This document shows positions 11,981 to 37,678 of a stretch of DNA of 64,000 nt, piece after piece. A program made the position numbers and the translations under genes. The stretch covers positions 1 to 64,000 of the forward strand of contig OY761611.1 in assembly GCA_963664875.1 (NCBI GenBank), read 5' to 3'. This DNA comes from Candidatus Kapaibacterium sp. GTDB taxonomy: Bacteria; Bacteroidota; Ignavibacteria; Kapaibacteriales; UBA2268. The notes beneath the pieces are model-generated. The model had not been told where the DNA came from, searched no databases, and saw only the letters and a list, made by a program, of their open reading frames with translations. How positions within the stretch are numbered: position 1 is the first letter of the stretch; each line of letters opens with the position of its first letter.

Positions 11981-12013
11981 TGAGACATAATATGTCGCTA
12001 TGCTATGTATATT
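11981..12013 (+). promoter_or_regulatory. Island box 1 (putative WYL site plus -10) upstream of the UvrD-nuclease
   Basis: TGAGAC-ATAATAT-GTCGCT; TGTCGC-N9-TATATT. Confidence 0.75.
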
Positions 12014-12048
12014 CTTATATAGCATATTCCAAATCTATAGAGGTTAAC

Positions 12049-14745
12049 ATGAATTTGAATTCTGCCCAACAGCATGCTGTTGATATAACTGGTAGTGTGG
12101 TTGTAAAAGCAAATCCCGGAACAGGGAAAACTACTCTAATCGCAAGTAAATATCTTAAACTTCTTCAAACCGGTATTAATCCCGAAGAGATTCTGTGTTT
12201 GACATTTACAAATAAAGCACAGAAAGAGATGGAAGCTCGTATCAAAAAGTTGATAGTAGATAATAACTTAGAAGTTAATCTTGCTGAATTGAAAATATTT
12301 ACTTTCCACTCCTATGCTATGAATGTTGTTGAGCAGAGAGAAATTATTCCTGAAACCTTCCTCAAATACATGATACTAAGGTATATGAAAGAGCATCAAG
12401 TCTATTCTTTGCAAGAATACGGACTTGAAAATACAGCTTTGCCTGGTATGATGGGACTTATTAAGTATCTTAAAACGCATGGTAAGCAACCTACAGATTT
12501 AGATGCCTCAGATATTAAAGGAATTATGCGTAAACTGTATGATGATCATCAAGCCACAAAACCTAAAAGTCAAAAGAATCCTCGTGAGGATGCTGAACTC
12601 TTTGCTTATGTAGATGCATTATGCAATATCTTTGATGATTACGAAACGCAAAAATCCCGTTATGGCTATGACTATTCTGATTTGCTTATTGAATATGATA
12701 AACTCACTCAAAAGCCGCATTATAAATATGTATTAGTAGATGAATTGCAGGATGTAAACTATCTTGAAGCAAAGATGGCTCGTGAGGCAGGCGATATTTT
12801 CTTTGCTGTGGGTGATGCAAAGCAGTCTATTATGGCGTTTCAGGGTGGCTCTATAGAAAATTTTGAAATGTTTAAGGATGGGGAAGAGGTTATACTTTCT
12901 GATAACTATCGTTCCTCAAATGAAATTCTTACTTTTGCTCGTGATGTTTATAAAAAACGCACTGGTTCGTTGGATCATAAAAATGAGCTCCAATCCCTTC
13001 GCAATCCAACTATAAAAGATGTGATGGATAAAGTCAAATTATATGAGATAGCCAAAGATGATGTGCTTGATTCTGTTGTGAAGTTGGTTGCTAACTTATC
13101 TAAATTGGGTGATAAAGTTGCAGTAATTGGTAGAACAAACGACCAACTTGATAGTATGTCGCGCAAGCTTACTGACTATGGATTATCTCACACTACCACT
13201 TACGAAAAGGGCTCTGACGCTGTTAAGCAACATATTATAGAGTTTATTGATGGCTTTTTTACAAAAGACCCTCAGATAATCCTAAATTCTTTCTTCACTC
13301 CGTTTGCTCCGATAAGTATTGAAGATGCTGTCAAAATATCAAATGCCGAACCTAAAACTATTGCTGATGTTCTGACTACTGAGCGTCTCGAGAGCTTTTA
13401 TAATTCGGTTACTAAAGTGGAAGATATAAATACTCTGTTTACTGATTGTATTTTCCCTATTTCCTTGCAGTATGGCGAAATATATTACGAAACTGCTCAG
13501 ATGATGTATAAAACTTATGCTGAAGCTTTCAAAAATGTAAATCTCAAAACTTATGATAAGCTGTTTGACTATATGAAAATGGCTTCTCTTGATGCTGAGA
13601 GGAAAAAAGAAATAGAAGAGCAGGTTGTTCTTACTACGATTCACAAAGCCAAGGGTAAGGAATACGACCACGTAATATATGTGCAGCACGAAACAAAAGA
13701 AAAAAAGGATATTTACTATTTTCTAAGAGAAGCAACTCTCAAATCGCTTAATCTAAATAGCTCTGAATTAGATGAAGAGGAATCTTTGCGTCTTGACTTC
13801 GTAGCTGTTACTCGTGCAAAGGAAACCCTGCACATTATCCCTGAGGATATGGAGCAGTTTGTTACTGAAGACACCGTCACAACTTCAATAGATGTTGAAA
13901 TCGAAGATTTTGAGATCGAAACTGATGCCTTCAAAGCTAAACAGGCGTTTGCTCTTTTTGTGAATAAGGATTATGAAAAAGCAAAAGACCTTTTAACTAC
14001 AAATCGTGATTGGCTGATTTACACTATAAGAGCGCATTTTGAAAATATGCCTCATTTGTCTTTCTCCGCTGTGATAAAAGATCCTTACGAGTATTTAAAG
14101 AAGCGGATTTTGAATATTAAATATATTTCTGATGCTTTGGCGGTGGGTATTGATTTGCATGATTATGCAGAAAAATTCCTTAAAACGGGCAAGACAGAGC
14201 ACAAAAAAGAGCTCGCTCCGTATGTTAAGAATTTCCACAATTTGCATGATGAAATTCTAAAAAGCTATCCGAATTTTGTATCGGCAGAGGATAATTTTAA
14301 TTTACCACTAAACGAAGTCTTTGATGTAGATGATGATATTTTACTGACCGGAAAAATTGATGCTATATATAAAGATGAGCATGGAAGATACCTCTTTGTG
14401 GATTGGAAGACAAGCCGCAATCAAAACTCGCTAAACGATTACCGCAAGCAGCTCGAAACTTACAGAAGGGCTTACACTAAACTAAACAATATCGAATTGG
14501 ACGATGTTACTTCTGCGGTCGCTTTTGTAAGCCTTGCCACAGGTATAAATACCGGTCAGCTCGATCATGAGTTAGTGCTGGAAACTAATCCAAGTAATAT
14601 GTTCACCAACTTCCAAAAGGACGTGCAGACGATCATATCATGGCGAAAAGACCCTCTGAACTTCTGCAATGACTTCCTTGATAATGAGAAGGATGATTAC
14701 CTATGGCAGGCAGTCGCCGAGCAGATTAAGAGAGAGATGAGGTAG
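12049..14745 (+). CDS. UvrD/REP-like SF1 helicase fused to a C-terminal PD-(D/E)xK nuclease
   Basis: ANPGTGKTT, TFTNKA, VDELQD, VGDAKQSI, NYRS, TIHKAKGKE, VAVTRAK; GKIDAI...VDWKT...QLETY; GAGG RBS before ATG 12049. Confidence 0.92.
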   Translation: MNLNSAQQHAVDITGSVVVKANPGTGKTTLIASKYLKLLQTGINPEEILCLTFTNKAQKEMEARIKKLIVDNNLEVNLAELKIFTFHSYAMNVVEQREIIPETFLKYMILRYMKEHQVYSLQEYGLENTALPGMMGLIKYLKTHGKQPTDLDASDIKGIMRKLYDDHQATKPKSQKNPREDAELFAYVDALCNIFDDYETQKSRYGYDYSDLLIEYDKLTQKPHYKYVLVDELQDVNYLEAKMAREAGDIFFAVGDAKQSIMAFQGGSIENFEMFKDGEEVILSDNYRSSNEILTFARDVYKKRTGSLDHKNELQSLRNPTIKDVMDKVKLYEIAKDDVLDSVVKLVANLSKLGDKVAVIGRTNDQLDSMSRKLTDYGLSHTTTYEKGSDAVKQHIIEFIDGFFTKDPQIILNSFFTPFAPISIEDAVKISNAEPKTIADVLTTERLESFYNSVTKVEDINTLFTDCIFPISLQYGEIYYETAQMMYKTYAEAFKNVNLKTYDKLFDYMKMASLDAERKKEIEEQVVLTTIHKAKGKEYDHVIYVQHETKEKKDIYYFLREATLKSLNLNSSELDEEESLRLDFVAVTRAKETLHIIPEDMEQFVTEDTVTTSIDVEIEDFEIETDAFKAKQAFALFVNKDYEKAKDLLTTNRDWLIYTIRAHFENMPHLSFSAVIKDPYEYLKKRILNIKYISDALAVGIDLHDYAEKFLKTGKTEHKKELAPYVKNFHNLHDEILKSYPNFVSAEDNFNLPLNEVFDVDDDILLTGKIDAIYKDEHGRYLFVDWKTSRNQNSLNDYRKQLETYRRAYTKLNNIELDDVTSAVAFVSLATGINTGQLDHELVLETNPSNMFTNFQKDVQTIISWRKDPLNFCNDFLDNEKDDYLWQAVAEQIKREMR

Positions 14746-14822
14746 CGAAATTAGAAAATGTTTATGTAAATAACAAAAAATTGAAATAAATCTAAGTTTA
14801 AACAATACAATGGAGATTAGTT

Positions 14823-16805
14823 TTGGAAAAAAATCATATTGAAGAATTGATAAGAAACTATAATGATAAGTATCAGTTATGTGATAAAAATTCAGATTTA
14901 TACATCTTAGATGGTATTCCTGATAGTAAATATAACAATGCTTTCAAATCTCATAACTTGATTGAAGATGAAGTAATATATCTATTAGTTGATACTACTT
15001 TTTGGGGATCTGCTTCAGATAGTCTCCTTATTACCAACTATAGGATTTCAATTCGTGTTTATGGTGAAGAGAATAGTATTTGGTTTACTCTGCAAGAACT
15101 CAATAGTGTGAGCTATAATAAGCTCGATGAACTATTTTCATTTAAATATTCTTATTATAATACAGAGATACTAATGCCATTTGCAGATGTCTATAGTGTT
15201 GTTTCTAAGGATGAACACAGAATAGTTTTTGCTGAATTGCTGACGAATATAGCTAATGACTATGAAGATATAGAATCATTTGCGTTTAAACAAATATTTG
15301 AGCAAGAAGATAGAGCGAACCAAAAAGAAAAACTGTTAGAATATTTAGAAGAATTTAAAGAAGGATATTGTACTCATGAAGCAACATATCTTCTAGCAAG
15401 TCTATATTCAGAAGAAAATCAGTATGAAAAGGCATTGGGAATTATTACAAATTTAGATTTAGAAAAATATGATAAAGACTGTCATGGTTATTTTCATTTT
15501 TTAGAAGCAAAAGTTTTACTTGGGATAAAACAAACTAAGAAAGCTGAACTGAAGCTGCTACAAGCAAAGAACAGTATAAAAGATTTACCAAAAGATCATA
15601 AATTCTTTGTCGATAGTTTGAAAGATTTAGCAATAGATGATACAATTTCTACACTTCAGAATATCTTCTGTGATGATTTCGACGAAATTGAGCCAAAACT
15701 AAGAAAATATATCTTGGTTACGGATACGACAGATCAAGTTCATAATAATAGCTTTTATGCTTTTCAAATGAATACCCTACCAAAAATAGAATTTCCTACA
15801 GGCCACCCTCAGGTTAATATGCTTTACGTTTTACATCCGCAAAAAAAGAATTTGTATATACCGACAAAGGATTTAGATTCACATTTAATCGTTGATAAGC
15901 TAAATGAGTATCAATATTTTATTCAGTGTTTGGGTGCTCGTAAGATAGAAATCGTTAGGGCTTCAGAGTCAAGATTTACTTCACATGATACTTCGAATCA
16001 AGATACATCTGTATCTATAGAAGGAAGTAAGGCGGGGATTAAAGCTGTGTCTTTTAGTGGGGAATATTCAAGAGATATAACTTCAAACGAGAATATACTT
16101 AATACTTTTAGCACTAAAAGAGAGCAAATCTTTTCACCGAAGAAAAAACCATATTTACCTGATACTTTAAATTGGTATAATGCAGAACCATCTTGGCAGA
16201 GATTGTATGAACAAAGAATAAATGGTGGACTTTTATCTCACACTGAAATTCTATCTACATCAACGTCAGAAGTAGTTTCTGAATCAGAGAAGAAAAAAGT
16301 TAGTTCTGATATTGCATTATTTGTAAATAAATTTAAAAGTATTAAAGACACAGATAAGTATTTTGAAAATACAAAAAATGAAACCTTGCAGTTAGAAATC
16401 AAAGTAGAGTTTGAAGATATAGCTAATCTACTTGAAGAAAATCAGGAAGTAAAAGAAGAGAAAAAAACACTATCAGACATAGAAGCTACTTATAAAGAAG
16501 ATGTTGAAATGATGTTGGAAGATGATAATATTATCGATGAAGCAGAGCGAAAAATGTTAGACCGAAAAAAGATAAAACTTGGTCTTTCTCAAGAGAGAGC
16601 AAAAGAAATAGAAATGATGGTAATAGCAGATAAGGCACCAATGTTAAAAGAAGAATTAGAGTATTTAGAAGAATATAGAGCTATTTTAGAAGAAACTCCT
16701 GAGTTAAGTAAACTCGAGAGAAGGCTTTTAGATAGATTAGCAAGGAAATCAGGAATAACATCGGAGCGTCAGAAAGAATTGGAAGAGGGTGTGTCTATTG
16801 GTTAA
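14823..16805 (+). CDS. Multidomain hypothetical protein: TPR-like region, central HP/LGA domain, C-terminal TerB-like repeats
   Basis: TPR-like YLLASLY...YEKAL; LYVLHP...CLGARKIEI; two helical repeats (ERKMLDR..KLGLSQERAKEIE, ERRLLDR..KSGITSERQKELE); GGAG before TTG. Confidence 0.75.
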   Translation: MEKNHIEELIRNYNDKYQLCDKNSDLYILDGIPDSKYNNAFKSHNLIEDEVIYLLVDTTFWGSASDSLLITNYRISIRVYGEENSIWFTLQELNSVSYNKLDELFSFKYSYYNTEILMPFADVYSVVSKDEHRIVFAELLTNIANDYEDIESFAFKQIFEQEDRANQKEKLLEYLEEFKEGYCTHEATYLLASLYSEENQYEKALGIITNLDLEKYDKDCHGYFHFLEAKVLLGIKQTKKAELKLLQAKNSIKDLPKDHKFFVDSLKDLAIDDTISTLQNIFCDDFDEIEPKLRKYILVTDTTDQVHNNSFYAFQMNTLPKIEFPTGHPQVNMLYVLHPQKKNLYIPTKDLDSHLIVDKLNEYQYFIQCLGARKIEIVRASESRFTSHDTSNQDTSVSIEGSKAGIKAVSFSGEYSRDITSNENILNTFSTKREQIFSPKKKPYLPDTLNWYNAEPSWQRLYEQRINGGLLSHTEILSTSTSEVVSESEKKKVSSDIALFVNKFKSIKDTDKYFENTKNETLQLEIKVEFEDIANLLEENQEVKEEKKTLSDIEATYKEDVEMMLEDDNIIDEAERKMLDRKKIKLGLSQERAKEIEMMVIADKAPMLKEELEYLEEYRAILEETPELSKLERRLLDRLARKSGITSERQKELEEGVSIG

Positions 16806-16852
16806 GATATCATTTCAATTTCTAAAATGTAAAAAAAAGCAATATGCAATAG

Positions 16853-17854
16853 GTGAAAAATATGAAGTATTATGGTATTGTAAATAAGTTTAAAGATGAG
16901 CATAAATCTGGAATATATGCGAGACGTCAAATAACTTCTAAAGAACTTAATAGAATATCAAGCAAATATAAATTAGATGAATGGTTAGAATTAATATTTC
17001 TACTCAATCCTTCTGTTCTATTGACAAATCTAATTTTTCAAAGACACCGTACTGTTGAAATATTGAAATCAAGTTACGAAAATATTTCAAATATCTTCAA
17101 AAAGAAAGAAAAGTCTAGAAAGTTGGAATATAAAGCTAAAATAAATTTGGATTCCGCACGATGTCTTTGTTTTTTTGACGAAACTCTGGATGGAGATTAT
17201 AACATTATTGATGAATCTTTAAACTATGGTTTATTTGACAAAATAGGTAATAGTGGTTTTGAAAAAATGATGAAATCAGAAGGTGGTTCATCAATGTTTT
17301 TACTGGAAAAAAACTCTATTCCAAATCAAATAATCCATTTTTCAGGCAATAATGTAAATCTATCCTACGGTTTGTATTGTGAGCATCCAAGGAAGGACAA
17401 TGTTCTTCTTCCTCTTGAAAATTTACCTCAATTATTGCAATCCCTATTATTAGAAGAAACAATTCGAATTTATGAAGTACTTGGTGCAAAAGAAATAGTA
17501 ATAGAAGATATGACTGATTATAAAAGCTCAGTAAAAGGAAAAGATCATAAATATTCTATAAAGATAGAATCAGATAGTAAAATAAACACATTGAGAACAA
17601 AAACATATGGAGATGGTGTTTTTGATATTGAGAGAGCAGAAAAATATCACAATTTAGTTTATGATTATCCTGCAATTATGTCTGTTGTTGAAGCGAGAAA
17701 GTATGGGAATCAAACTTTAGAAGATTTTATTGAGGATGTTGATTTGAGTGCAGGTATAGATGTTGGAGTGTTGGGACTTTTTAACTTGGAGGCAAATTTA
17801 TCTTTGAAAAGACGATGGCGGTTTAAGGTTGAGTTTTGGCCAAGGAAATTATAG
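16853..17854 (+). CDS. Hypothetical protein sharing the HP/LGA domain with the upstream gene
   Basis: LYCEHPRKDN..LP...VLGAKEIVI...FKVEF aligns by eye with the 660-aa protein. Confidence 0.75.
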   Translation: MKNMKYYGIVNKFKDEHKSGIYARRQITSKELNRISSKYKLDEWLELIFLLNPSVLLTNLIFQRHRTVEILKSSYENISNIFKKKEKSRKLEYKAKINLDSARCLCFFDETLDGDYNIIDESLNYGLFDKIGNSGFEKMMKSEGGSSMFLLEKNSIPNQIIHFSGNNVNLSYGLYCEHPRKDNVLLPLENLPQLLQSLLLEETIRIYEVLGAKEIVIEDMTDYKSSVKGKDHKYSIKIESDSKINTLRTKTYGDGVFDIERAEKYHNLVYDYPAIMSVVEARKYGNQTLEDFIEDVDLSAGIDVGVLGLFNLEANLSLKRRWRFKVEFWPRKL

Positions 17855-17874
17855 AATTGATTATCAATATATTA

Positions 17875-18027
17875 GGTATTGTAAACTAAACTCTGTCCAG
17901 TAGATTGATGAAATTAAAGGACAGAGCAATGAAGGAACAAGATTACAAATCGATTCAAGACAAAGCAATTAAGCAATTTAAAGAGGGCAAATCACTATTA
18001 GGTAAAGATGGTGCATTTGCCCCTTTA
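17875..18027 (+). mobile_element. IS256-family remnant: left end plus the first ~33 codons of the transposase
   Basis: MKEQDYKSIQDKAIKQFKEGKSLLGKDGAFAPL resembles Bacteroidota IS256 transposase N-termini; GGTATTGTAAACTAAACTCTGTC is end-like. Confidence 0.75.
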
Positions 18028-18345
18028 TCCCAGCAATTTTTTACCATGGTGAGCATAGGCCGCAATCTTGATTCCATACTGGTCTTCTTTGTGATAACTC
18101 CACTCGAGCCTATTGATAATTGTTTCGCGAAATGTTTTTTGCATTTCTTCAATGCTAACAATGTCCGGAGCAGGCATCTCATCAAGATATAAAAGATATT
18201 TTTCTACGTACGATTCCGGCAATCCAATTTTAGCAACTTTGCTTTTGCCATATCTTTTATGCCAATTATAAATTCTTGCATAACATTCTTCTGCTCCCAT
18301 ACCTTCGGGAACTCTCTCTAAATCACCGCGATTTAAACCCATCAC
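18025..18345 (-). pseudogene. Hypothetical ORF probably 3'-truncated at the IS256 remnant
   Basis: GAGG RBS and box 2 upstream; its TAA coincides with the last recognisable transposase codon. Confidence 0.5.
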
Positions 18346-18399
18346 TTTCCTCTAAATTAGGTTTTATAAAATTTGAACTTAAAGATATAGACGGCAGTA

Positions 18400-18418
18400 T
18401 GCGACATAATATGACGTA
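18400..18418 (-). promoter_or_regulatory. Island box 2
   Basis: Sense TACGTC-ATATTAT-GTCGCA; -10 spacing deviates from the other boxes. Confidence 0.65.
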
Positions 18419-20228: not shown

Positions 20229-20242
20229 TTTCTGCTCCTTTG

Positions 20243-20845: not shown

Positions 20846-20849
20846 GATA

Positions 20850-30857: not shown

Positions 30858-31948
30858 AAAAATTCTCCAAATAAATAGTCACTAACAGCTTCCCAATCAG
30901 GAATTGCCGATGACCCAAATTGAATCAATTGTCCCGAGAAATTTTCAGAATCACTGTTAGGCGAATCATCTATTAGATAATCACCTTTGAGTAAGTTTTT
31001 ATGATGTGAGATTATCAATCTATTGTAGAGTGCGCTATCACTGTCGGCACCAAAGTATTTCTGAAGCCAATGCAATCTAAGCTGCCATACAGAGGGCTTG
31101 AGCCATGGGGCAGTAGCAAGCACATAAATATCATAATACTCAGCAAACATCTTTACTGTTTCTATAGCACCCTCAAACGGAGTCAACTTAGAGAAAATTC
31201 CGGGCACTTCGTCATACTTATCTTTATATTTTTCTCTCATCTCAGAATCTAATTGTCCGATTGCGGTATTGAAATCAGCTATAACATTGTCCATGTTGAT
31301 ATAGAGTATCTTTTTGATTGCAAATTTCTCTTCATCATGGATTTGAAATAGGTCATCATAATCGTCAACAAGCAAGTATAACTTTATTGTTCTCAGGTAA
31401 TCTTTCAAATTGTTGAATTGGTGACCGCCATCTTCGCTGATGAAAACATCTTTTATTACATTCGTAAAAATAGAACGAAACTTATCAAAATTATCTTTAC
31501 TGATCCGCTCATCATCTGTATTCCGATAGATTTGCAATATTTGACCATGCTGCTTAGATAATAAATGAGAAATTTCTGTTTTGAACTGCTGAAATGAATC
31601 TAACTCCTGATTAGACAGAAGCTCTACCAAAGTTTCTTCAGGGAAATAACTTGGGTTTAGTAGGGCCGTTTTCAAATTGTATTTTAATGCTGCATAAATT
31701 GCAGGTATTGAACCAAGAGAAGAAGCTATTAAGTATATATTACAGCCCTTATGTTCTGCAATAAGCTTATCAATTGAACTAATATCAGCACTCCAATTGT
31801 AAGTTTGAGCGTATTCAATTACTTGGAAGTTTTCAACTTCTTTTTCAAAATATTCTTTAACTTGAAGATATTTCGAAGAGTTTACTCCTTCGAGGTTTCG
31901 TTCCTCTATGCTTCGAAAACCGGAGAAATAAATAAATAAGTGTTTCAT
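30854..31948 (-). CDS. YqiA/YcfP-like alpha/beta hydrolase fused to an NT5C-like HAD nucleotidase
   Basis: SGFRS, ASSLG, LLNP, GGHQF; then YINMDNVIADF, ATAPW, HHKNLLKGDYLIDD. Confidence 0.82.
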   Translation of the reverse strand: MKHLFIYFSGFRSIEERNLEGVNSSKYLQVKEYFEKEVENFQVIEYAQTYNWSADISSIDKLIAEHKGCNIYLIASSLGSIPAIYAALKYNLKTALLNPSYFPEETLVELLSNQELDSFQQFKTEISHLLSKQHGQILQIYRNTDDERISKDNFDKFRSIFTNVIKDVFISEDGGHQFNNLKDYLRTIKLYLLVDDYDDLFQIHDEEKFAIKKILYINMDNVIADFNTAIGQLDSEMREKYKDKYDEVPGIFSKLTPFEGAIETVKMFAEYYDIYVLATAPWLKPSVWQLRLHWLQKYFGADSDSALYNRLIISHHKNLLKGDYLIDDSPNSDSENFSGQLIQFGSSAIPDWEAVSDYLFGEFL

Positions 31949-31983
31949 ATATATTCCAAATAAACACACAAAAAAGATATACT

Positions 31984-32016
31984 AATATAAAACCTTAAGC
32001 GACAAAAAGTGACACA
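31984..32016 (-). promoter_or_regulatory. Island box 5
   Basis: Sense TGTGTC-ACTTTTT-GTCGCT; TGTCGC-N9-TATATT. Confidence 0.78.
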
Positions 32017-32080: not shown

Positions 32081-35029
32081 CTACGCCTCAAATACCGGTC
32101 TATCATAAACCGTCAATCCAAGTCGCCAATTCAAGGCTTCTTCTACTGTCCTGATTCTTGGTTCAACTCCTTCTATATGTCGCTCGCCTGTGGTAGGATT
32201 TACCATAATCAGGTAGGGGAGTGTCCTTGTGTCGCTGCCATCTACTAAGTAAAGGAGACCTAATTGGTAGTCGTCTTGGGTATCAACTATATCTAAGTCA
32301 AGGTTTTGCAAGAAGCGTTCGTAACCGAAATAGCGTATCAAAAGATCACGAGTAGTAACATTGCTTACTTTTAATATTTGCTTTGCCACCATTTTATGGT
32401 TGTCAGATAAAATCCACCCGGGTATGCTGTTTGTATTCCATGCACCCAATACAGATTCAAACTCCAAAGGAGGCATACCTTCCTGAAAATTGATGCTGAA
32501 CTTGCAATTATTATAATTATTCTTAGGGAAGTTCTTCGGATCTCTAAGCATAAACTGGAATGTATCATTTTTATCGTACCATACATAGTCGCAATACAAA
32601 TATATCTCTGTAAGTAATGATATTATTTCGCTTGTTTTGCTATCTACGTTTACCACATACCTGAGCAATGCATCATACATCCACAGACGAACAAGAAACA
32701 TATTAACAGAATAGCTCATATTGCTATACAGAAATTCCAAAAAAGCATGAGAACGAATATGTTCATCACTTTCAATCGCACTTATCGCATCCTCTATATC
32801 ATTCCTTTTTGAGCCACCGGTGTACATGAGATGTGTAAGCAAGTCTGTGTAAACATCTGTGAAAATATGATCTAAATCAACGCTGTCATGTAATTCGTCA
32901 GTGCTTCCTCTGCTACTCAGGATATATTCATGAGTCAAAACCAGATATCTGCCTGCAGTTTGTTCTACTGTTTTGCCATCTATCTTGATTTTGTAGTCAA
33001 TATCTAAATCTGAATGATTCAGCGGATATTCCTCATCAGTATCTACTTTTTCAATGGAATGGCTGCAGAAGTCATGTTGCATTAAAAAAGAATTGTGGCT
33101 TTTTAAGTTACTTCTGAATCTGTCACCTGACTTCTGCAATAGCATTGAATTTCCCTGTTTGACAAGAGAAAGCAACTCATTCCTTTCAGCTTGATTTACT
33201 ATCTTTATATTATTTATACCCAAGAGCGATGCTAATCGTTCTAAACTTTTTTGAACTTCTGTTGTGGTATCTTCCATGCTAAGATTTGGCTTGCAAAACC
33301 GATCTCTTAGATTTGTTAAATGATTAAGTATATTAGATGCCTGCTCAAATAACAGCTCAATCTTAAATGAATCTATAAATACAAAAGGCCCTTGCTTTTT
33401 CATGCTGAATCCTATGGATTTTTGAATATTTTCAATTGTATGAATATTTTCAATAGTATAATTAGTTTTAGATGGGTTTAGATATTCTTTTTGTGAGAAA
33501 ATCTGAATATAATCCGGCAGTATTTTGCATCGTTTGGTATTAGGATTTGCGATTAGAGAGAGTCTTAATTCCTCACCAAAATCTACAAACACATCCCCAC
33601 AATCATCCTGAACTGCAAACAATTTATACTTAACAGTTTTTTGTTCTAAAAAATGATTTACATAGTACTCTTTAGCTTCTTTTACGGAGAATAATGATTT
33701 ACGGACTTTTTCAGGGAAAATTATCATTTGCTTTTCTTGATGGTCAGCAAAGCACAATTTGAGCTCCTCATCAGATTCTATTCTAAATAGAATAAACTGA
33801 TTATCAACATCTATTACATCAAATAATCTCATGATATTTTGCAGAGAAAAATCTTGTAATACATTGAAATTAGTTCTGTTTAGATGAAAGTTGTGCTTGA
33901 AAAACTTACGCAAAGAATTAGATGCGATTAAAACATTTTGCTCTGTGTCGTAATCGTTAATATCTATAAGTGCTGAAAAATCTTTAGAATTTATATCACT
34001 AAGATCGAAAGGAATTGGAGGTATTCGTACTGCGTCTCCATAGTTAACCGTTGCGAAATTGTTATTTGCAGAATGTTGATTTCTTAAAGATATATACTTA
34101 CTTTCTCTAGCTTTAATGAGTAATCCATCTGAGTTAGGAGCGAAGTCAGTCCAAAACTCAAAATTATTTCCGTCAATCTTGAATTTATGCTTGAAGAAGT
34201 TGTAACTTTTCAAGTCTTCTTCAATGTATATAGAATTTAAAGAAAATGTTTTAGCATTGTTTAAAGTTATATCTATATTCAGAGTAGAAAGTAGCAAAAG
34301 TGCATTTAGTATATCGTTTTCCGGTTCGTCCAAAATAAAACCTAAACCCCTAATTGCATCATACAGCCAAAATATATGCCTTTGTGATAAACTGAAATCT
34401 TTCAAATAATTGCAATACAGGTAATTTATAAACTGTAAATATTTATTATCAAAAGCATATTGTGATTTAAAATCCAAATTACCAAATATCATTATATTAG
34501 AGTTATACCTAAAGTCAGATTCTTCGATTATTCGCCTGAATAGTAAATTGTCGTTGGGATAAGCATAATGTTCAAATGGAAAAGAGGGACAATTTCTAAA
34601 TATTTTATAATATCTGCCACAAGCGAAATAGAATCTGGACGCAAGTACTTTTGATGATAATTCAAAATCAATATTATCAATCAAATCCAAATCTTCAGTT
34701 TCTCTATTTACCTCTATTTCAATTGTCAAAACAGAATTTGAAGTGTCAGGATTTTTTAATTGGACATCTTCAATTTTCCTGACATTGTTTTCAGTAGCGT
34801 GATACATGCGGCTATCTGTTCTTATTTCTGCTTGAGTCAATAGTATCGCAGGCTCTGAAATACAAATATAATCAGCTACCACTCTGAGAGCATCTACTAT
34901 ATCCTGCTCTCCGCAATCATTGTCATTGTTATAATACTTCTGCTTCCAATAATCCATTCTATCAAGGACTTGTTGTATTTGAGCAGGTGAGAGCTGGAAG
35001 CCTTCTTTGTTTTGTTTGCAGTCTTGCAT
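32081..35029 (-). CDS. Large DUF6745-like protein with apparently two tandem units
   Basis: N-terminal LSPAQ..RMDYW; WLYDA and WMYDA motifs; C-terminal MVNPTTGERHIEGV...ALNWRLGLTVYDRPVFEA nearly identical to the 399-aa paralogue. Confidence 0.8.
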   Translation of the reverse strand: MQDCKQNKEGFQLSPAQIQQVLDRMDYWKQKYYNNDNDCGEQDIVDALRVVADYICISEPAILLTQAEIRTDSRMYHATENNVRKIEDVQLKNPDTSNSVLTIEIEVNRETEDLDLIDNIDFELSSKVLASRFYFACGRYYKIFRNCPSFPFEHYAYPNDNLLFRRIIEESDFRYNSNIMIFGNLDFKSQYAFDNKYLQFINYLYCNYLKDFSLSQRHIFWLYDAIRGLGFILDEPENDILNALLLLSTLNIDITLNNAKTFSLNSIYIEEDLKSYNFFKHKFKIDGNNFEFWTDFAPNSDGLLIKARESKYISLRNQHSANNNFATVNYGDAVRIPPIPFDLSDINSKDFSALIDINDYDTEQNVLIASNSLRKFFKHNFHLNRTNFNVLQDFSLQNIMRLFDVIDVDNQFILFRIESDEELKLCFADHQEKQMIIFPEKVRKSLFSVKEAKEYYVNHFLEQKTVKYKLFAVQDDCGDVFVDFGEELRLSLIANPNTKRCKILPDYIQIFSQKEYLNPSKTNYTIENIHTIENIQKSIGFSMKKQGPFVFIDSFKIELLFEQASNILNHLTNLRDRFCKPNLSMEDTTTEVQKSLERLASLLGINNIKIVNQAERNELLSLVKQGNSMLLQKSGDRFRSNLKSHNSFLMQHDFCSHSIEKVDTDEEYPLNHSDLDIDYKIKIDGKTVEQTAGRYLVLTHEYILSSRGSTDELHDSVDLDHIFTDVYTDLLTHLMYTGGSKRNDIEDAISAIESDEHIRSHAFLEFLYSNMSYSVNMFLVRLWMYDALLRYVVNVDSKTSEIISLLTEIYLYCDYVWYDKNDTFQFMLRDPKNFPKNNYNNCKFSINFQEGMPPLEFESVLGAWNTNSIPGWILSDNHKMVAKQILKVSNVTTRDLLIRYFGYERFLQNLDLDIVDTQDDYQLGLLYLVDGSDTRTLPYLIMVNPTTGERHIEGVEPRIRTVEEALNWRLGLTVYDRPVFEA

Positions 35030-35089
35030 GATTATATTGACCTTTGATAGAATTTTAAAATACCATATTTAGAGTTTAGATAATATAGC

Positions 35090-36487
35090 CTATTTAGAAA
35101 GTATTGGTTCATCATCCCTTGCCATTTGTGGAGACTCTTCTTCGTCTAAATTTATGTTATATGCACCTGTAGAATTGTCTTTGAAGAACTTTCGATTGCA
35201 ACTTAAAGTTCTAAGAAGAGAGCAGTTTATTGGCTTGTCTTTGTCCCTAATGCTTGAAAATTCATAAGGAGGCAAGTACTTCAGGTGTGAAAACTTATGA
35301 TATATCACGAAAATGGCATAAAACTCTGTCCTTTTTAAATCTTGTATTGTGAAATTGAGAGATCCAAGGCTCAAACCATAATTAGGCGCATCTGAAAAAT
35401 CACCAAATTCATTGGTCATGTGTATCTCATCTTCAATATACCATGTCTTTGCCCTATGCATAGGTTCATCCCACTCATCAACACAATCCTGTTTCTCGTA
35501 AAAAAGTTCTAAATACGATTCATCAGTAATTTCTTCAGAGTATTTGTGTGCAGTGATATGAAACCCATCTCGATATATGCCTCTATGATTAGTAAAAAAC
35601 TCAATTTCCTGTCCTTTAATCAAAACTGTATTTTTATAATTTTTCAAATAGTCTTCTTTTCTTTCTTCATTGGCTGGATAAATGGTAATCTGACCTTCTG
35701 TGTTCACTATAAAATAGAAATCGGCTTGATTAAGAGATACAGCTGCATCAAGTATCTTATTGATTTCATAATTATATTCATGAAGATATTTATCTCCAAT
35801 AAATCGCAGAGCGTCATAAAGCCAAATTGCATTCCGATAGTCACTACCAACATAATCTTCATAGTTGCAGTAGAGGAAGTTAAGCAATTGTATCACTTCA
35901 TTATCCTTAACTTCCTTTTGCTCAGGATCTACTGATCCAAATATTCCATCGTGCAATTCACTTCTGAAATCACTCCTCTCAAATAAATATTTTAAAAGAG
36001 AAGCATTTTCGCAAAACTTATCTTCTACAGCTGCTTGATGTCTTAAATCTCTAAATATTTGTAAAAAGTCACCTCCTACTACATAAGATATTGCCGGAGT
36101 GTTATAGTTATGGAACCGAAAATATGCTTTGTCTTCTTTGTAATGTGTTATATCTTCAATATGTACAATCAGTGATTTTTCAGATTTATCATATATTTTG
36201 TTATTCTGATAGTGTTTTCTTATTTCAACATCAGCCAAGTCTAAAAGGTTTGGTGTAAATAAATCTATCTCTAAAAATATATCCATTTCATTAGAGACCA
36301 GCTCAATTTTTGGATTTGCGATACCTACATACTCAGCTATAAGTCTGACAGCAGATACCAATTCCTGATAACTCACATTACTTCCGTCATTGGAGTAGTA
36401 TCTGTCTCTCAAATAATCCATTCTTCCAAGCAATTTATCTATCTGCTCTTTTGTTAAATCAAAATCTTCAGCTCTTTTGGTATCCAT
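35090..36487 (-). CDS. Paralogue of the N-terminal unit of the 982-aa protein
   Basis: LTKEQ..RMDY, SDFR, IFG, NFLYCNY and WLYDA shared; start reassigned to ATG 36487. Confidence 0.8.
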   Translation of the reverse strand: MDTKRAEDFDLTKEQIDKLLGRMDYLRDRYYSNDGSNVSYQELVSAVRLIAEYVGIANPKIELVSNEMDIFLEIDLFTPNLLDLADVEIRKHYQNNKIYDKSEKSLIVHIEDITHYKEDKAYFRFHNYNTPAISYVVGGDFLQIFRDLRHQAAVEDKFCENASLLKYLFERSDFRSELHDGIFGSVDPEQKEVKDNEVIQLLNFLYCNYEDYVGSDYRNAIWLYDALRFIGDKYLHEYNYEINKILDAAVSLNQADFYFIVNTEGQITIYPANEERKEDYLKNYKNTVLIKGQEIEFFTNHRGIYRDGFHITAHKYSEEITDESYLELFYEKQDCVDEWDEPMHRAKTWYIEDEIHMTNEFGDFSDAPNYGLSLGSLNFTIQDLKRTEFYAIFVIYHKFSHLKYLPPYEFSSIRDKDKPINCSLLRTLSCNRKFFKDNSTGAYNINLDEEESPQMARDDEPILSK

Positions 36488-36517
36488 TTTTATCTCTGAT
36501 AGTTTTACTTCTATGCA

Positions 36518-36550
36518 AATAAACGTGTTGAAGTGACAATATATGTCGTA
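36518..36550 (-). promoter_or_regulatory. Island box 6, in the divergent intergenic region upstream of the WYL gene
   Basis: Minus-strand TACGAC-ATATATT-GTCACT; TGTCAC-N9-TTTATT. Confidence 0.72.
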
Positions 36551-36679
36551 GATATTTTGATTTATCACTAAACTTTGTAACTCAAAAAATACATTTTTAA
36601 ATACAAAACTATCCGTCAAGTTCAGTCGCTTTGGTACAGATATTGCAGTAAAAGTAATTTTCAATTTCGGAAAATAGAA

Positions 36680-37678
36680 ATGTCTAAAATTCAACATATA
36701 ATACACTTACGCGATTGCCTGATGGCAGGGCAGAGGCTCGATTCTAATAATATAATTGAGCTTTTGAAAGATGAGTTTGATGCCAAAATAGACAAACGAA
36801 CAGCTCAGCGCTATATAAGTGAACTAAAGAATATGGAAGATCTTTATGTCGAAGAGAATATTGAAGGCAAAAAGATTATAATATACATTAGCGGCGAAAA
36901 CCGAAGAAGCTTCAGAGAGACCAATCCGTTGCCTAATCCGGGGAATTATCTGCTGTCGCTCAATGTTTTGAAGGCTCATCTTAAATCATTTGCCGGAACA
37001 AAAATTGAGAAAAATACGAATGAGTTAATATCTGAGATTGAAAAGGTTACTAAAAATAAAACCGAAATCTTTACTTCAAAAAGTCTGTTTTGGAATCAAA
37101 ATCACGGTAGCTACGATTATTCACCTCACGCAAAAACAATTGACCATATAACCGATTTAATAACTCAGCAAAAACTTCAATATGTGAGCTACGGAGATGC
37201 TCACAAACCTAATGGGTTTGTAGCTCAGCTTTGTGAGTTTTTTACATATAATGGCACTTTGTATGTAGCCGCTTACGTTTTTAAGCATAAGCATCATATA
37301 GCTCTTGCAGTGCAAAACATACTTAAACTTACTGATCTAAGCAAGGAAGACCAAGATCACTACTCCAATATCAATGTACCTCTCTTCTCATTCGAGGAGT
37401 TCAAAAGATATAGATTTGGCGTACATGAAGGCGAAATAAAAAAAGTTCGCCTTGAAGTCAGCAAAGAGCACAAACACTACTTCCTAAACCGCAATTTCCA
37501 CGACTCTCAAATAAATCTCTACGAAAACGACCCGGGCAGGCAAATGCAAATCACCTTAGAAGTTCCACTAAGCCCTGAATTAGTATCATGGATTCTCTCA
37601 TGGGGTGGGGAATTACAGGTAGTTTCTCCTAAAGAGTTGAAGGAGATGGTGGCAGAAAAGGCGAGGAGGTTGGTGTAG
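36680..37678 (+). CDS. HTH-WYL-WCX transcriptional regulator
   Basis: wHTH KRTAQRYISEL; YNGTLYV; WCX-type HDSQ...ELVSWILSWGGELQVVSPKELK. Confidence 0.9.
   Translation: MSKIQHIIHLRDCLMAGQRLDSNNIIELLKDEFDAKIDKRTAQRYISELKNMEDLYVEENIEGKKIIIYISGENRRSFRETNPLPNPGNYLLSLNVLKAHLKSFAGTKIEKNTNELISEIEKVTKNKTEIFTSKSLFWNQNHGSYDYSPHAKTIDHITDLITQQKLQYVSYGDAHKPNGFVAQLCEFFTYNGTLYVAAYVFKHKHHIALAVQNILKLTDLSKEDQDHYSNINVPLFSFEEFKRYRFGVHEGEIKKVRLEVSKEHKHYFLNRNFHDSQINLYENDPGRQMQITLEVPLSPELVSWILSWGGELQVVSPKELKEMVAEKARRLV

What the first reader, a model, noticed from the sequence alone, without database searches (positions are those of the whole stretch)
11981..37678. Six-site WYL regulon wiring together an uncharacterised 26-kb island (best candidate for a new system)
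Seen: one motif recurs only in intergenic DNA, about 45-70 bp upstream of six island transcription units and oriented with transcription. Sense-strand sequences: 11981 TGAGAC-ATAATAT-GTCGCT; 18400 TACGTC-ATATTAT-GTCGCA; 22528 TAAGTC-ACATTCT-GTCGCA; 26384 AGTGTC-ACATTCT-GTCGCA; 31998 TGTGTC-ACTTTTT-GTCGCT; 36532 TACGAC-ATATATT-GTCACT. In four sites TGTCGC is followed by exactly N9 and TAnATT, and box 6 gives TGTCAC-N9-TTTATT. Box 6 lies between the WYL gene and its divergent operon. Known: the WYL activator DriD binds CGAC-N7-GTCG and is activated by ssDNA, and PafBC recognises TGTCGG-N10-TAnnnT in place of a -35 element. Inference: the island WYL protein is a nucleic-acid-sensing activator that co-induces about 11 genes (helicase-nuclease, four DUF6745-like proteins and their partner, SLOG protein, esterase-nucleotidase) as one damage- or phage-triggered programme. 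I saw no box upstream of mcrBC.
Basis: partly seen in the sequence, partly recalled or inferred. Interest (0 to 1): 0.92.

Follow-up and report, generated by a model that had tools for sequence, protein, structure and literature searches.

The report
WYL-regulator boxes on seven island promoters
Seven promoters of a 27-kb defence-type island in a Bacteroidota genome carry the same binding box for the island's own DNA-damage-type (WYL) regulator, a known kind of switch that here controls mostly uncharacterised genes.

Summary
The strict pattern gives 5 matches in the window against 0.04 expected. A matrix built only from the six boxes of a sister species ranks the seven window boxes 1-7 of 7.66 million genome positions.

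The box reads cGWCA-N5-TGTCGc. That is the published operator of the WYL activators DriD (CGXC-N7-GXCG) and DdaA (CGWCA-N5-TGWCG). The island protein folds as wHTH-3HB-WYL-WCX and DriD is its best structural match. It keeps the Arg-x3-Arg recognition helix and models as a homodimer.

Each box lies 9 nt upstream of a TAnnTT element in a promoter that lacks the host's -33 TTTG. An activator is therefore the likelier reading, and a repressor is not excluded.

The kind is already known: DdaA activates both DNA-repair and defence genes. Three things are new here:
- a second, island-borne regulator
- box-plus-cargo modules that differ between species (GmrSD in the relative; helicase-nuclease and esterase-nucleotidase here)
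- orphan DUF6745 cargo

Looser boxes also precede chromosomal rmuC, rtcB and a 173-aa gene.

This scan has met similar island-wide WYL regulons on other DNA (e1-4883801, e1-5202094, e1-3154887).

The parts
11521..11595 (+). tRNA-Met at the left edge of the island
   Evidence: ARAGORN. Window 11580-11645 and 38919-38992 lie about 360 bp apart in G004, so roughly 27 kb is inserted here.
11984..12013 (+). Box S1, GACATAATATGTCGC, then N9, then TATATT (12008-12013)
   Evidence: Ranked 4 by the G004-derived matrix. The module it heads is absent from the 60 kb of G004 examined.
12049..17854 (+). Unit 1: a UvrD-type helicase fused to a PD-(D/E)XK nuclease (12049-14745), then 660-aa (14823-16805) and 333-aa (16853-17854) proteins with no family
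   Evidence: Pfam UvrD-helicase 1.2e-39 and PDDEXK_1 7.9e-07. PADLOC GajB-type models 8.9e-41. No Pfam, PADLOC or PHROG hit for the other two.
18384..18415 (-). Box S2, CGTCATATTATGTCG(C). It is an exact match to CGWCA-N5-TGWCG. N9 is followed by TCTATA, and TATATC lies 2 nt further on
   Evidence: Ranked 1. Orthologous box at G004 C6:130749.
18025..18345 (-). Unit 2: 106-aa protein with no family
   Evidence: 76% identical in G004.
22514..22543 (-). Box S3, GTCACATTCTGTCGC, then N9, then TACATT
   Evidence: Ranked 3. The G004 orthologue reads GTCACATTCTGTCTT-N9-TATATT.
18436..22468 (-). Unit 3, six genes: 117 aa (22115-22468, phrog_27831), 196 aa (21525-22115, DprA-like phrog_768), 175 aa, 200 aa, and the paralogues of 360 aa and 237 aa
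   Evidence: The 237/360 paralogy scores 3e-60. G004 keeps the 117-, 200-, 360- and 237-aa genes but not the 196- and 175-aa genes.
26370..26399 (-). Box S4, GTCACATTCTGTCGC, then N9, then TAAATT
   Evidence: Ranked 2. Conserved in G004 at 123583 while the sequence just upstream has a 9-nt indel.
22558..26333 (-). Unit 4: 399-aa protein with a DUF6745 tail (25134-26333) and an 848-aa protein with no family (22558-25104)
   Evidence: Pfam DUF6745 26.6 bits against a cut-off of 27. 896 representatives at E<=1e-3. 56 of the 60 aligned sequences (the query included) hit PF20530. No solved fold at E<=1e-3.
26538..30368 (-). Genes with no box of their own: zinc-ribbon protein (26538-26756), McrC (27032-28510), McrB-type AAA_5 GTPase (28479-30368)
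   Evidence: Pfam McrBC 2.5e-33 and AAA_5 1.1e-17. No box upstream of mcrB. No terminator-like site between 30368 and 30483, so read-through from S5 is possible.
31984..32013 (-). Box S5, GTCACTTTTTGTCGC, then N9, then TATATT
   Evidence: Ranked 6. The module is absent from the G004 region examined.
30483..31969 (-). Unit 5: fusion of a UPF0227 esterase-like domain and an NT5C deoxyribonucleotidase-like domain (30854-31969), then an acidic 124-aa protein (30483-30857)
   Evidence: Pfam UPF0227 1e-11 and NT5C 7.9e-11. PHROG 5'-3' deoxyribonucleotidase 8.4e-09.
36516..36547 (-). Box S6, CGACATATATTGTCAC, then N9, then TTTATTTG. This is the only box followed by a near-complete host -7 element
   Evidence: Ranked 7.
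32081..36487 (-). Unit 6: 465-aa protein (35090-36487) and 982-aa protein with a DUF6745 tail (32081-35029). The two share an N-terminal module
   Evidence: Pfam DUF6745 23.2 bits. BLASTP 982 against 399, 1.8e-26 over the C-terminal tail; 982 against 465, 1.5e-23 over the N-terminus.
36615..36644 (+). Box S7 (new here), CGTCAAGTTCAGTCGC, then N9, then GATATT, in the WYL gene's own promoter
   Evidence: Ranked 5. Orthologous box at G004 C6:118211.
36680..37678 (+). Island regulator, 332 aa: wHTH (3-69), three-helix bundle (72-124), WYL (about 148-228), WCX (238-331)
   Evidence: Pfam WCX 9.1e-13. PADLOC WYL 4.4e-20. Model pLDDT 82.5. Foldseek top hit DriD 8tp8, 2.4e-14. R40 and R44 invariant in 15 of 15 sequences. 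Homodimer model 0.63 against a best control of 0.00.

Best explanation
The seven boxes are operator sites of a DriD/DdaA-type WYL transcription factor. The most likely binder is the island's own 332-aa protein, acting as a homodimer. Each box is built into a promoter. The stronger half-site (TGTCGC) lies next to the promoter, 9 nt upstream of a TAnnTT element. The whole 15-bp dyad covers the place where the host's -33 TTTG would sit.

I infer that the protein is an activator. When its WYL domain binds a nucleic-acid ligand, probably ssDNA made by DNA damage or by phage replication, the wHTH domains engage the boxes and help the housekeeping RNA polymerase onto promoters that are otherwise weak. 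That would switch on seven transcription units together, 17-20 genes including its own.

The cargo is of defence-island type: a helicase-nuclease, McrBC by read-through, a nucleotidase fusion, and GmrSD in the sister species. It also holds orphan DUF6745 and partner proteins.

Shown here: the boxes, their conservation, the protein's architecture, and the promoter layout.
Inferred: binding, the ligand, the sign of regulation, and the defence role.
For: Box statistics and cross-genome ranking:
- 5 matches against 0.04 expected.
- 5 of 6 genome-wide matches lie in the island.
- The G004-derived matrix ranks the seven boxes 1-7 of 7.66 million positions.

Match to published operators:
- All 7 boxes carry G2, C4, G12 and C14 with an AT-rich 7-bp spacer. 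These are the four bases that DriD Arg37 and Arg41 read (PMC10853764 passages).
- 5 of 7 fit GWCA-N5-TGWCG, and S2 fits DdaA's full CGWCA-N5-TGWCG.

The regulator:
- Predicted architecture wHTH-3HB-WYL-WCX.
- Foldseek order: DriD 2.4e-14, PafBC 8.5e-11, CapW 1.6e-06, BrxR 2.9e-06.
- DriD is the only PDB sequence hit, profile E 5.5e-11.
- R40 and R44, spaced i and i+4 in predicted helix 39-50, are invariant in 15 of 15 sequences.
- The homodimer model scores 0.63 against a best control of 0.00. At this mark 20 of 30 solved pairs of one chain and 1 of 23 proteins solved as single chains passed; run agreement was at least 68% and partner pLDDT at least 74. Solved DriD dimers exist, so this pass may reflect likeness.

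Conservation with the regulator:
- The 79%-identical orthologue in G004 sits in a syntenic island with six boxes. One is in its own promoter and two precede a GmrSD gene.
- Boxes are kept while flanking intergenic DNA diverges.
- In 5 of 19 metagenome loci, relatives 27-30% identical have a CGAC-N7-GTCG-type box upstream of the gene. In 4 it lies within about 85 nt of the start; in L073 it lies about 470 nt upstream.

Activator-type layout:
- The box-to-hexamer distance is fixed.
- The divergent region has one box per promoter: 2 here, 3 in G004.
- By inspection, no box promoter has a -33 TTTG and only S6 has a near-complete -7 box. The host's own -7 element TAnnTTTG is positionally enriched at -50 to -31 (99 and 78 counts against 4-53 in the other bins).
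- DriD promoters likewise lack a -35 element and hold the site at a fixed distance from -10 (PMC13004042 passages).
- The RWHVR motif of the CapW/BrxR repressors (PMC11662680 passage) is absent from the island protein.
Against: - There are no binding, expression or TSS data. No RNA run was listed.
- With TAnnTT taken as the -12 to -7 element, the dyad centre falls near -30. That is closer to the promoter than is reported for DdaA (about 50 bp upstream of the TSS) or for DriD at didA (3' end at -36). A site there could equally block the polymerase.
- WYL regulators beside defence systems (BrxR, CapW) are repressors.
- At N9, three of the 13 boxes in the two genomes (S2, G004-b, G004-e) have a poor hexamer.
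- The genus has a second, chromosomal WYL paralogue, 39% identical. Looser boxes occur upstream of chromosomal genes even in species without the island regulator, so the island protein may not be the only binder, or even the main one.
- The region around the island protein's LYV motif (residues 194-196) shows no arginines by eye, so the ligand may differ. I did not map the ligand-contacting residues by alignment.
Confidence: 0.6

Rival explanations
1. The boxes and the binder are the same, but the island WYL protein is a repressor of the BrxR/CapW kind. It would sit on the core promoters and leave when it binds ssDNA, so the island is de-repressed on damage or infection.
For: - The dyad overlaps the core promoter region, with its centre near -30 if TAnnTT is the -10/-7 element.
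- The published WYL regulators beside defence islands, BrxR and CapW, are repressors that release DNA on binding ssDNA (PMC11662680 and PMC9122601 passages).
- The island holds McrBC, and the G004 island holds GmrSD directly behind two boxes.
- The protein has a box in its own promoter.
Against: - By fold the protein ranks with the activators: DriD 2.4e-14 and PafBC 8.5e-11 against CapW/BrxR near 1e-06.
- It has the three-helix bundle that PMC10853764 assigns to homodimeric activators.
- It lacks the RWHVR motif.
- BrxR operators are 11-bp inverted repeats with a 5-bp spacer, placed downstream of the -10. That is a different site type and position.
- The boxes keep an exact distance and orientation to the hexamer, and each divergent promoter has its own box. 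A roadblock does not need either.
- The promoters lack the host's -33 and most of its -7 consensus.
Confidence: 0.22
2. The boxes are read mainly by the chromosomal WYL paralogue (G000 3775579-3776499), as part of a genus-wide damage regulon. The island regulator would be redundant, a competitor or a modulator.
For: - The paralogue keeps the R-x3-R helix, reading RTIIRY.
- A box of the same layout, CGAC-N7-GTCA followed 8-10 nt later by TA(t/a)TTT, precedes a 173-aa gene in 5 of 5 genus genomes, three of which lack the island regulator.
- Similar boxes precede rmuC in 3 of the 5 genus genomes by eye (none seen in the 8 other genomes printed), and rtcB in G000.
Against: - Island boxes share a stricter proximal half, TGTCGC in 6 of 7, which the chromosomal boxes lack (they read GTCA, GACA or GACT).
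- Island-type boxes were seen only where the island regulator's orthologue is present. G004 is the only genome with a syntenic boxed island among those examined. The strict box-plus-hexamer pattern gave no hit in G001 or G003 and two hits of unexamined context in G002.
- The island regulator has its own box, kept in both species.
- The two readings are not exclusive.
Confidence: 0.13
3. The conserved string is a promoter for an alternative sigma factor and not a regulator site. It could be ECF-like, with GTCAC as the -35 and CGTA as the -10, or sigma-54-like.
For: - GTCAC-N17-CGTA in S3, S4, G004-c and G004-d resembles ECF spacing, and a CGT precedes the hexamer in 8 of 13 boxes. The ECF and sigma-54 consensus sequences are recalled, not taken from a call.
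Against: - The best-conserved bases, TGTCGC, would then fall in the spacer.
- The ECF AAC motif and the sigma-54 GG/GC dinucleotides are absent.
- No sigma-like domain was found in any island protein by Pfam.
- The string matches published WYL operators base for base.
Confidence: 0.03

Closest known systems
DriD of Caulobacter crescentus, a homodimeric wHTH-3HB-WYL-WCX activator of an SOS-independent DNA-damage response (PMC9186387, PMC10853764, PMC13004042; passages read)
   Same: - Best structural match (Foldseek 2.4e-14) and the only PDB sequence hit.
- Same domain order, including the three-helix bundle.
- Two arginines spaced i and i+4 in the recognition helix.
- Operator CGXC-N7-GXCG with an AT-rich spacer.
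- A site in its own promoter.
- Target promoters with no -35 element and the site at a fixed distance from the -10.
   Different: - Only about 17% identical in the Foldseek alignment.
- The host is a Bacteroidota organism with -33/-7 promoters.
- The proximal half-site lies 9-10 nt from the -10-like element. [quoted passage not shown]
- The regulon is one genomic island of defence-type and orphan genes, not repair and cell-division genes scattered over the chromosome.
- The regulator is island-borne and is a second paralogue.
DdaA of Acinetobacter and other Moraxellaceae, a WYL activator of DNA-damage and anti-phage genes (PMC12392091; abstract and sections 26, 28, 31 read, plus passages)
   Same: - The operator consensus CGWCA-N5-TGWCG is the island box. 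S2 is an exact match, and 5 of 7 boxes match GWCA-N5-TGWCG.
- It is a homodimer with a three-helix bundle.
- It directly activates defence systems (restriction-modification, CRISPR-Cas) together with a damage response.
   Different: - DdaA is a chromosomal master regulator that replaced SOS. This genome still has a LexA-like gene, 108 bits against a cut-off of 111.
- The DdaA motif lies about 50 bp upstream of the TSS, whereas here the box abuts the -10-like element.
- Sequence kinship to DdaA could not be tested, because no DdaA sequence was at hand.
PafBC of mycobacteria, a heterodimeric WYL activator that works by sigma adaptation at a -26 element (PMC8635444 and PMC11804915; passages read)
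   Same: - The promoter grammar tGTCgg-N10-tAnnnT against TGTCGC-N9-TAnnTT.
- No -35 element.
- The GTC triplet is read by two arginines spaced i and i+4 (R46 and R50 of PafB).
- Second-best fold match, 8.5e-11.
   Different: - PafBC is a PafB/PafC heterodimer, only one HTH touches DNA, and its site is short and not palindromic.
- Here there is one gene, a modelled homodimer, a full dyad, and a three-helix bundle that the PafB homologues surveyed in PMC10853764 lack.
BrxR and CapW, WYL repressors of BREX, CBASS and other defence islands (PMC9122601 and PMC11662680; passages read)
   Same: - wHTH-WYL-WCX dimers encoded beside defence genes.
- pEFER has two R-boxes in one defence island.
- ssDNA is the signal for CapW.
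   Different: - Weaker fold match, about 1e-06.
- The RWHVR motif is absent.
- Their operators are longer inverted repeats (11 bp with a 5-bp spacer) at or downstream of the -10.
- There are seven boxes here against one or two.

Membership tests
DriD/DdaA-type homodimeric WYL activators | Domain order wHTH, three-helix bundle, WYL, WCX | tested here: met
   Pfam WCX 9.1e-13. PADLOC WYL 4.4e-20. AlphaFold model with pLDDT 82.5 and helices 72-81, 87-102 and 110-124 between the wHTH and the WYL sheet. Foldseek top seven rows are all DriD chains, best 2.4e-14.
DriD/DdaA-type homodimeric WYL activators | Two base-reading arginines spaced i and i+4 in recognition helix alpha3 (DriD R37/R41) | tested here: met
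   R40 and R44 are invariant in 15 of 15 aligned relatives and lie in predicted helix 39-50. The match to DriD R37/R41 is by position in the helix. No superposition was made.
DriD/DdaA-type homodimeric WYL activators | Operator CGXC-N7-GXCG (or CGWCA-N5-TGWCG) with an AT-rich spacer | tested here: met
   7 of 7 boxes have G2, C4, G12 and C14. 6 of 7 have G15. C1 is present in 3 of 7. Every spacer has at least 5 of 7 A/T. Consensus sequences.
DriD/DdaA-type homodimeric WYL activators | Homodimer through the WCX domain | tested here: met
   Two-copy model scores 0.63 against a best control of 0.00, with the interface at 302-331 and 90-100. It is a model only and may reflect likeness to solved DriD dimers.
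DriD/DdaA-type homodimeric WYL activators | Sites at a fixed distance from the -10 in promoters that lack a -35 | tested here: inconclusive
   The N9 distance to a hexamer is kept in all 13 boxes of the two genomes. The hexamer fits TAnnTT in 7 and ends in ATT in 10. No box promoter has a -33 TTTG by inspection. TSSs are unknown, and the distance is shorter than published for DriD or DdaA.
DriD/DdaA-type homodimeric WYL activators | ssDNA bound by the WYL domain switches on DNA binding and activation | not testable with these tools
The LYV motif at 194-196 stands where DriD has NYL at 191-193. I did not map the ligand-contacting arginines.
BrxR/CapW WYL repressors | RWHVR motif in the WYL domain | tested here: not met
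   The island protein contains no RWHVR string, and its WYL-equivalent position reads LYV (sequence). Motif from the PMC11662680 passage.
BrxR/CapW WYL repressors | Operator is a palindrome of about 20-27 bp (11-bp arms, 5-bp spacer) at or downstream of the -10 | tested here: not met
   The boxes are 15-bp dyads with 4-5-bp arms and a 7-bp spacer, upstream of the -10-like hexamer. BrxR layout.
PafBC | PafB/PafC heterodimer or fusion, with a single DNA-contacting HTH | tested here: not met
   There is one 332-aa gene with no adjacent paralogue. A homodimer is modelled, and both half-sites are conserved.
PafBC | Promoter tGTCgg-N10-tAnnnT with the element at -23 to -28 | tested here: inconclusive
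   TGTCGC-N9-TAnnTT is one base shorter and otherwise alike. The position relative to the TSS is not known.
DUF6745 (PF20530), for the cargo proteins | Score at or above Pfam's gathering threshold of 27 bits | tested here: inconclusive
   399-aa protein 26.6 bits, 982-aa protein 23.2 bits. The six-frame genome search gave 27.9 bits for the first. 56 of the 60 aligned sequences (the query included) hit PF20530, best 2.6e-30. The 848-aa and 465-aa proteins have no hit and no BLASTP link to the tail.

The most novel reading that the evidence does not exclude
The island is a self-contained alarm regulon whose promoter box works as a portable socket. Any cargo module that carries the box joins the programme, for example GmrSD in one species and a helicase-nuclease or an esterase-nucleotidase in the other. 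All such modules fire together when the island's own WYL sensor detects ssDNA.

The conserved core would then be an undescribed anti-phage or damage-response system. That core is two DUF6745 proteins, their 465- and 848-aa neighbours, and the 117/200/360/237/106-aa set, none of which has a solved fold or a described function.

A second strand concerns geometry. A DriD-type dyad sits at a PafBC-type position, in front of a Bacteroidota -7 element. That would be a third way for a WYL activator to engage the polymerase.
Probability: 0.3. Interest if true: 0.7.

Novelty: new variant of a known kind. Interest (0 to 1): 0.5.

Why it matters
The result gives a testable handle on about 17 genes, most of them without any known family. 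If one sensor switches them on together, a single experiment would define the regulon and show whether the DUF6745 proteins act in defence or repair. That experiment is damage or phage challenge, with and without the regulator. DUF6745 is common in tailed phages and has no paper in the library searched.

The result also extends the DriD/DdaA operator code, two arginines reading G-x-C, to a Bacteroidota lineage with a different promoter grammar. And it shows the box travelling with exchangeable cargo modules between two species. That is a simple route by which defence islands could recruit new genes into an existing alarm circuit.

The regulatory principle itself is already published, so the value lies in the cargo and the island-level layout.

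Tried and rejected
Sigma-54 reading. TGTCAC-N5-GTCGC has the spacing of a -24/-12 promoter but lacks the GG and GC dinucleotides, and it would leave the conserved TAnnTT unexplained (the consensus is recalled). Rejected.

ECF reading. See the rivals.

The generic sigma-70 scan is uninformative: 87 sites against 86.8 expected. The host uses TAnnTTTG, while TATAAT and TTGACA show no positional enrichment.

Expression and TSS evidence. The look-up of sequencing runs listed no RNA holder. Read laying was not used, because contigs cannot show starts.

Wider orthologues of the regulator.
- The single-sequence scan of genome contigs found none.
- The word-based protein search found 5 proteins, only one of them above 43% identity.
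- In 10 genome loci of relatives 31-37% identical there was no island cargo and no box beside the WYL gene. There were 3 loose-pattern hits in about 186 kb, none of them within 5 kb of the WYL gene.
- In 19 metagenome loci there was no cargo. The 8 loci with 33-38% identity had no box upstream.

Cargo function.
- The 399-aa model has no PDB match at E<=1e-3; 0 of its 78 listed matches reach that level.
- BFVD returns only DUF6745 or unnamed phage proteins.
- tblastn against phage records gave 1 weak hit.
- PF20530 was found in 3 of 301 Bacteroidota genomes sampled.
- The Atlas gave DUF6745 clusters only.
- PADLOC had no model for any cargo protein except generic UvrD/GajB models.

Mobility. 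No repeat of the tRNA end longer than 16 nt was found at the right edge. No integrase was seen among the island ORFs scanned.

Perfect CGWCA-N5-TGWCG palindromes elsewhere in the genome. There are 5 positions. By the crude ORF map three overlap ORFs, one is intergenic with no gene start within about 600 nt, and one lies in a CRISPR-like array.

Literature. 'DUF6745' returned 0 papers. Searches returned no paper on an island-borne multi-box WYL regulon or on Kapaibacteria WYL proteins. These searches cover only the held library.

Supplements are closed. Table S4 and Figure S8 of PMC10853764, and Figures S3 and S8C and Table S14 of PMC12392091, may hold Bacteroidota homologues or exact box-to-TSS distances that bear on the geometry argument.

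Full report
OBSERVATION

Aligned on the sense strand, each reads (c)GWCA-N5-TGTCGC, then nine bases, then a TA-rich hexamer, then 25-40 bases to a start codon preceded by a purine-rich stretch.

- The strict pattern GWCANWTWNTGTCRC occurs 5 times in the window against 0.04 expected (100 shuffles, largest 1).
- It occurs 6 times in the 3.83-Mb genome, 5 of them in the island.
- GWCA-N5-TGWCG gives 42 hits genome-wide on both strands. Seven lie in the island's 26.4 kb, against 0.42 expected from base composition.
GATATT follows nine bases later, and the box begins 65 nt upstream of the WYL start codon at 36680.
- No box precedes mcrB.

THE ISLAND

tRNA-Met lies at 11521-11595. Window 11580-11645 and 38919-38992 lie about 360 bp apart in a sister-species genome, G004. 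So about 27 kb is inserted here. I found no integrase and no long repeat of the tRNA end.

The seven boxes head seven units:
- S1: a UvrD/PD-(D/E)XK helicase-nuclease plus two proteins with no family.
- S2: a 106-aa protein.
- S3: six genes, including a DprA-like (phrog_768) protein and two paralogues of 360 and 237 aa.
- S4: a 399-aa DUF6745 protein and an 848-aa protein.
- S5: a UPF0227/NT5C fusion and an acidic 124-aa protein. This unit possibly reads through into mcrBC, because no terminator-like site lies between them.
- S6: a 465-aa protein and a 982-aa DUF6745 protein.
- S7: the regulator itself.

That makes 17 genes, or about 20 with read-through.

Only the 399- and 982-aa proteins carry the DUF6745 tail, at 26.6 and 23.2 bits against a cut-off of 27. 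BLASTP links their tails at 1.8e-26. The 465-aa protein shares only the N-terminal module of the 982-aa one, and the 848-aa protein has no link.

COMPARATIVE EVIDENCE

Relatives of the regulator occur in 35 of the 61 genomes searched, the window's own included. Only G004 has a close orthologue, at 79% identity. All others are at or below 40%, including a second copy in the window's own genome.

G004 has a compact syntenic island on contig C6 at 117-131 kb. It keeps units 2, 3 (in part), 4, 6 (in part) and 7. It lacks the helicase module, the 196/175-aa pair, McrBC and the esterase-nucleotidase. It adds a GmrSD type IV restriction gene.

G004 has six boxes: one before the regulator, two before GmrSD, and one each before the 399-, 117- and 106-aa orthologues. 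A weight matrix made from these six ranks the seven window boxes 1-7 of 7,655,558 genome positions, scoring 20.9-31.7 against a next best of 17.0. Five of these pairs are orthologous and so are not independent. S1 and S5 head modules that G004 lacks, and they still rank 4 and 6.

In pairwise alignments the box, the hexamer and the ribosome-binding region are kept. The DNA just upstream is poorly alignable, with a 9-nt indel next to S4.

In G004 as a whole, GWCR-N6-GTCGC gives 18 hits. Six lie on C6 between 91 and 131 kb. The backward control pattern gives 36.

More distant relatives show a mixed picture. Ten genome loci (31-37% identity) and nineteen metagenome loci have no island cargo. Five of the nineteen, all 27-30% identical, have a CGAC-N7-GTCG-type box upstream of the gene. 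In four it lies within about 85 nt of the start; in L073 it lies about 470 nt upstream. The eight loci at 33-38% identity have none.

WHAT THE BOX IS

The published DriD consensus is XC1G2X3C4(X)7G12X13C14G15X with an AT-rich spacer. Arg37 and Arg41 of the recognition helix read G2 and the guanine opposite C4, and position 3 is free (PMC10853764 passages). All seven boxes carry G2, C4, G12 and C14.

DdaA of Acinetobacter binds CGWCA-N5-TGWCG (PMC12392091 section 26). S2 is an exact match, and five of the seven boxes fit GWCA-N5-TGWCG.

PafBC promoters read tGTCgg-N10-tAnnnT, with R46 and R50 of PafB on the GTC triplet (PMC8635444 passages). The island promoters read TGTCGC-N9-TAnnTT.

THE REGULATOR

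- Pfam finds WCX and PADLOC finds WYL.
- The AlphaFold model (pLDDT 82.5, from 15 sequences) shows a winged helix (3-69), three helices (72-124), a WYL sheet and WCX.
- Foldseek puts DriD chains in its first seven rows, with best E-values of 2.4e-14 for DriD, 8.5e-11 for PafBC, 1.6e-06 for CapW and 2.9e-06 for BrxR.
- By sequence only DriD chains are hit, at profile E 5.5e-11 and over WCX only.
- R40 and R44 are invariant in 15 of 15 relatives and lie in helix 39-50.
- A two-copy model scores 0.63 against a best control of 0.00, with a WCX interface. At this mark 20 of 30 solved pairs of one chain and 1 of 23 proteins solved as single chains passed. Run agreement was at least 68% and partner pLDDT at least 74. 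Because DriD dimers are solved, this pass may show likeness only.
- The RWHVR motif of the CapW/BrxR repressors is absent from the protein.

ACTIVATOR OR REPRESSOR

The host is a Kapaibacterium-like member of the Bacteroidota, going by record titles and the lineage.

Its -7 element TAnnTTTG is positionally enriched 31-50 nt upstream of start codons, with 99 and 78 counts against 4-53 in the other bins. TATAAT and TTGACA are flat. The tRNA-Met promoter shows TTG-N20-TATATTTG.

The box promoters keep TAnnTT but, except for S6, lack the final TG. By inspection none has a -33 TTTG.

Four features point to an activator:
- the stronger half-site is always next to the promoter
- the N9 distance is kept in all 13 boxes of the two genomes
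- each promoter of the divergent regions has its own box
- this is the layout described for DriD, where the site overlaps the missing -35 at a fixed distance from the -10

Three points count against it:
- With TAnnTT as the -12 to -7 element, the dyad centre is near -30. That is closer than reported for DdaA (about 50 bp upstream of the TSS) or for DriD at didA (3' end at -36).
- The published WYL regulators beside defence genes, BrxR and CapW, are repressors.
- No TSS or RNA data exist.

A second TA-rich element (TATATAG or TATTAG) lies 8 nt further downstream in six boxes. It could be the real -7 box, which would move the dyad to about -38.

I put activator at roughly 0.65 and repressor at 0.2-0.25.

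NOT ONLY THE ISLAND

A looser box with the same layout precedes a 173-aa gene (G000 1912864-1913385). It is conserved in 5 of 5 genomes of the genus, three of which lack the island regulator.

Similar boxes precede:
- rmuC: TGACATAATATGTCA-N10-TATATTTG. It is present in 3 of the 5 genus genomes by eye, and in none of the 8 other genomes whose upstream sequence was printed.
- rtcB.

The genus-wide chromosomal paralogue (3775579-3776499, 39% identical, recognition helix RTIIRY) is the obvious candidate binder. The island boxes differ in having the stricter TGTCGC half-site. So the island circuit looks like a specialised offshoot of a host WYL damage regulon, and cross-talk cannot be excluded. 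A LexA-like gene is also present, at 108 bits against a cut-off of 111.

CARGO

- DUF6745 has 896 representatives at E<=1e-3.
- It is frequent in tailed phages, by the Atlas clusters and by a BFVD hit to a Microcystis phage protein at 4e-11.
- It is rare in Bacteroidota, at 3 of 301 genomes sampled.
- It has no solved fold and no paper in the library searched.

A defence role for the island is an inference. It rests on McrBC, the GmrSD gene behind two boxes in G004, the helicase-nuclease and the nucleotidase.

VERDICT

The regulator-box link is well supported in silico. The kind of system is known, since DriD and especially DdaA tie defence genes to a WYL damage activator through this same box.

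New here are the island-borne paralogue with seven dedicated promoters, the exchange of box-bearing cargo modules between species, the close-in geometry on Bacteroidota-type promoters, and the orphan cargo.

This scan has reported comparable island-wide WYL regulons on other DNA.

Noticed in passing
G000:C1:1912864-1913463, 1875611-1877062, 2130194-2131370 and 3775579-3776499 (all outside the window): Looser DriD/DdaA-type boxes with the same box-to-TAnnTT layout precede a 173-aa orphan gene, rmuC and rtcB. The first is conserved in 5 of 5 genus genomes. A chromosomal WYL paralogue, 39% identical to the island one, may run this regulon beside a LexA-like gene at 2890640-2891239.
   Followed up: partly
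G000:C1:2164098-2164112 (outside the window): A perfect CGACAAATTATGTCG box lies inside what looks like a CRISPR spacer, flanked by a repeated unit of about 30 nt. A spacer carrying a WYL box would suggest a past invader with the same kind of promoter.
   Followed up: no
window 17880-18041: A 162-bp stretch between the convergent units 1 and 2 has two copies in G004, about 167 bp each and 87-90% identical (C6:94275-94441 and 134032-134198). They bracket the variable region that holds the G004 island. It could be a mobile-element end or a recombination site.
   Followed up: no
L018:16226-17302 (G004 C6:134225-135301): A Mutator-family transposase (5.6e-94) lies at the far end of the G004 island, next to a TerB-domain protein. 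No transposase or integrase was seen in the window's island.
   Followed up: no
window 26466-26502 (- strand): A 12-bp perfect hairpin (ATACCCAATGTA / TACATTGGGTAT) followed by T-rich sequence lies after the zinc-ribbon gene. It is conserved in G004. It probably acts as a terminator that insulates the S4 promoter.
   Followed up: partly
window 26835-27020 (- strand): A short ORF of about 61 aa (MPKPKYLTKSRFKLGRECP...) lies directly after mcrC and ends abruptly. It looks like the N-terminal remnant of a larger gene.
   Followed up: no
window 20850-20971: A 120-nt gap inside unit 3 between the 175-aa and 200-aa genes. In G004 the 117-aa and 200-aa genes are direct neighbours, with the 196/175-aa pair missing. 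The pair therefore looks like an insertion into the operon.
   Followed up: no
G004 C6:91183-91197 (L016) and C2:1269384-1269398 (L031): Two orphan boxes of full island type. The first is followed by a hairpin, and the second lies between convergent genes. Neither has a downstream gene, so they may be relics of lost cargo modules.
   Followed up: partly
window 6323-7903: An octaheme tetrathionate-reductase-family cytochrome (TIGR04315, 1.1e-170) and a radical-SAM/SPASM maturase-like gene (1804-2877) lie in the flank. They are unrelated to the finding.
   Followed up: no
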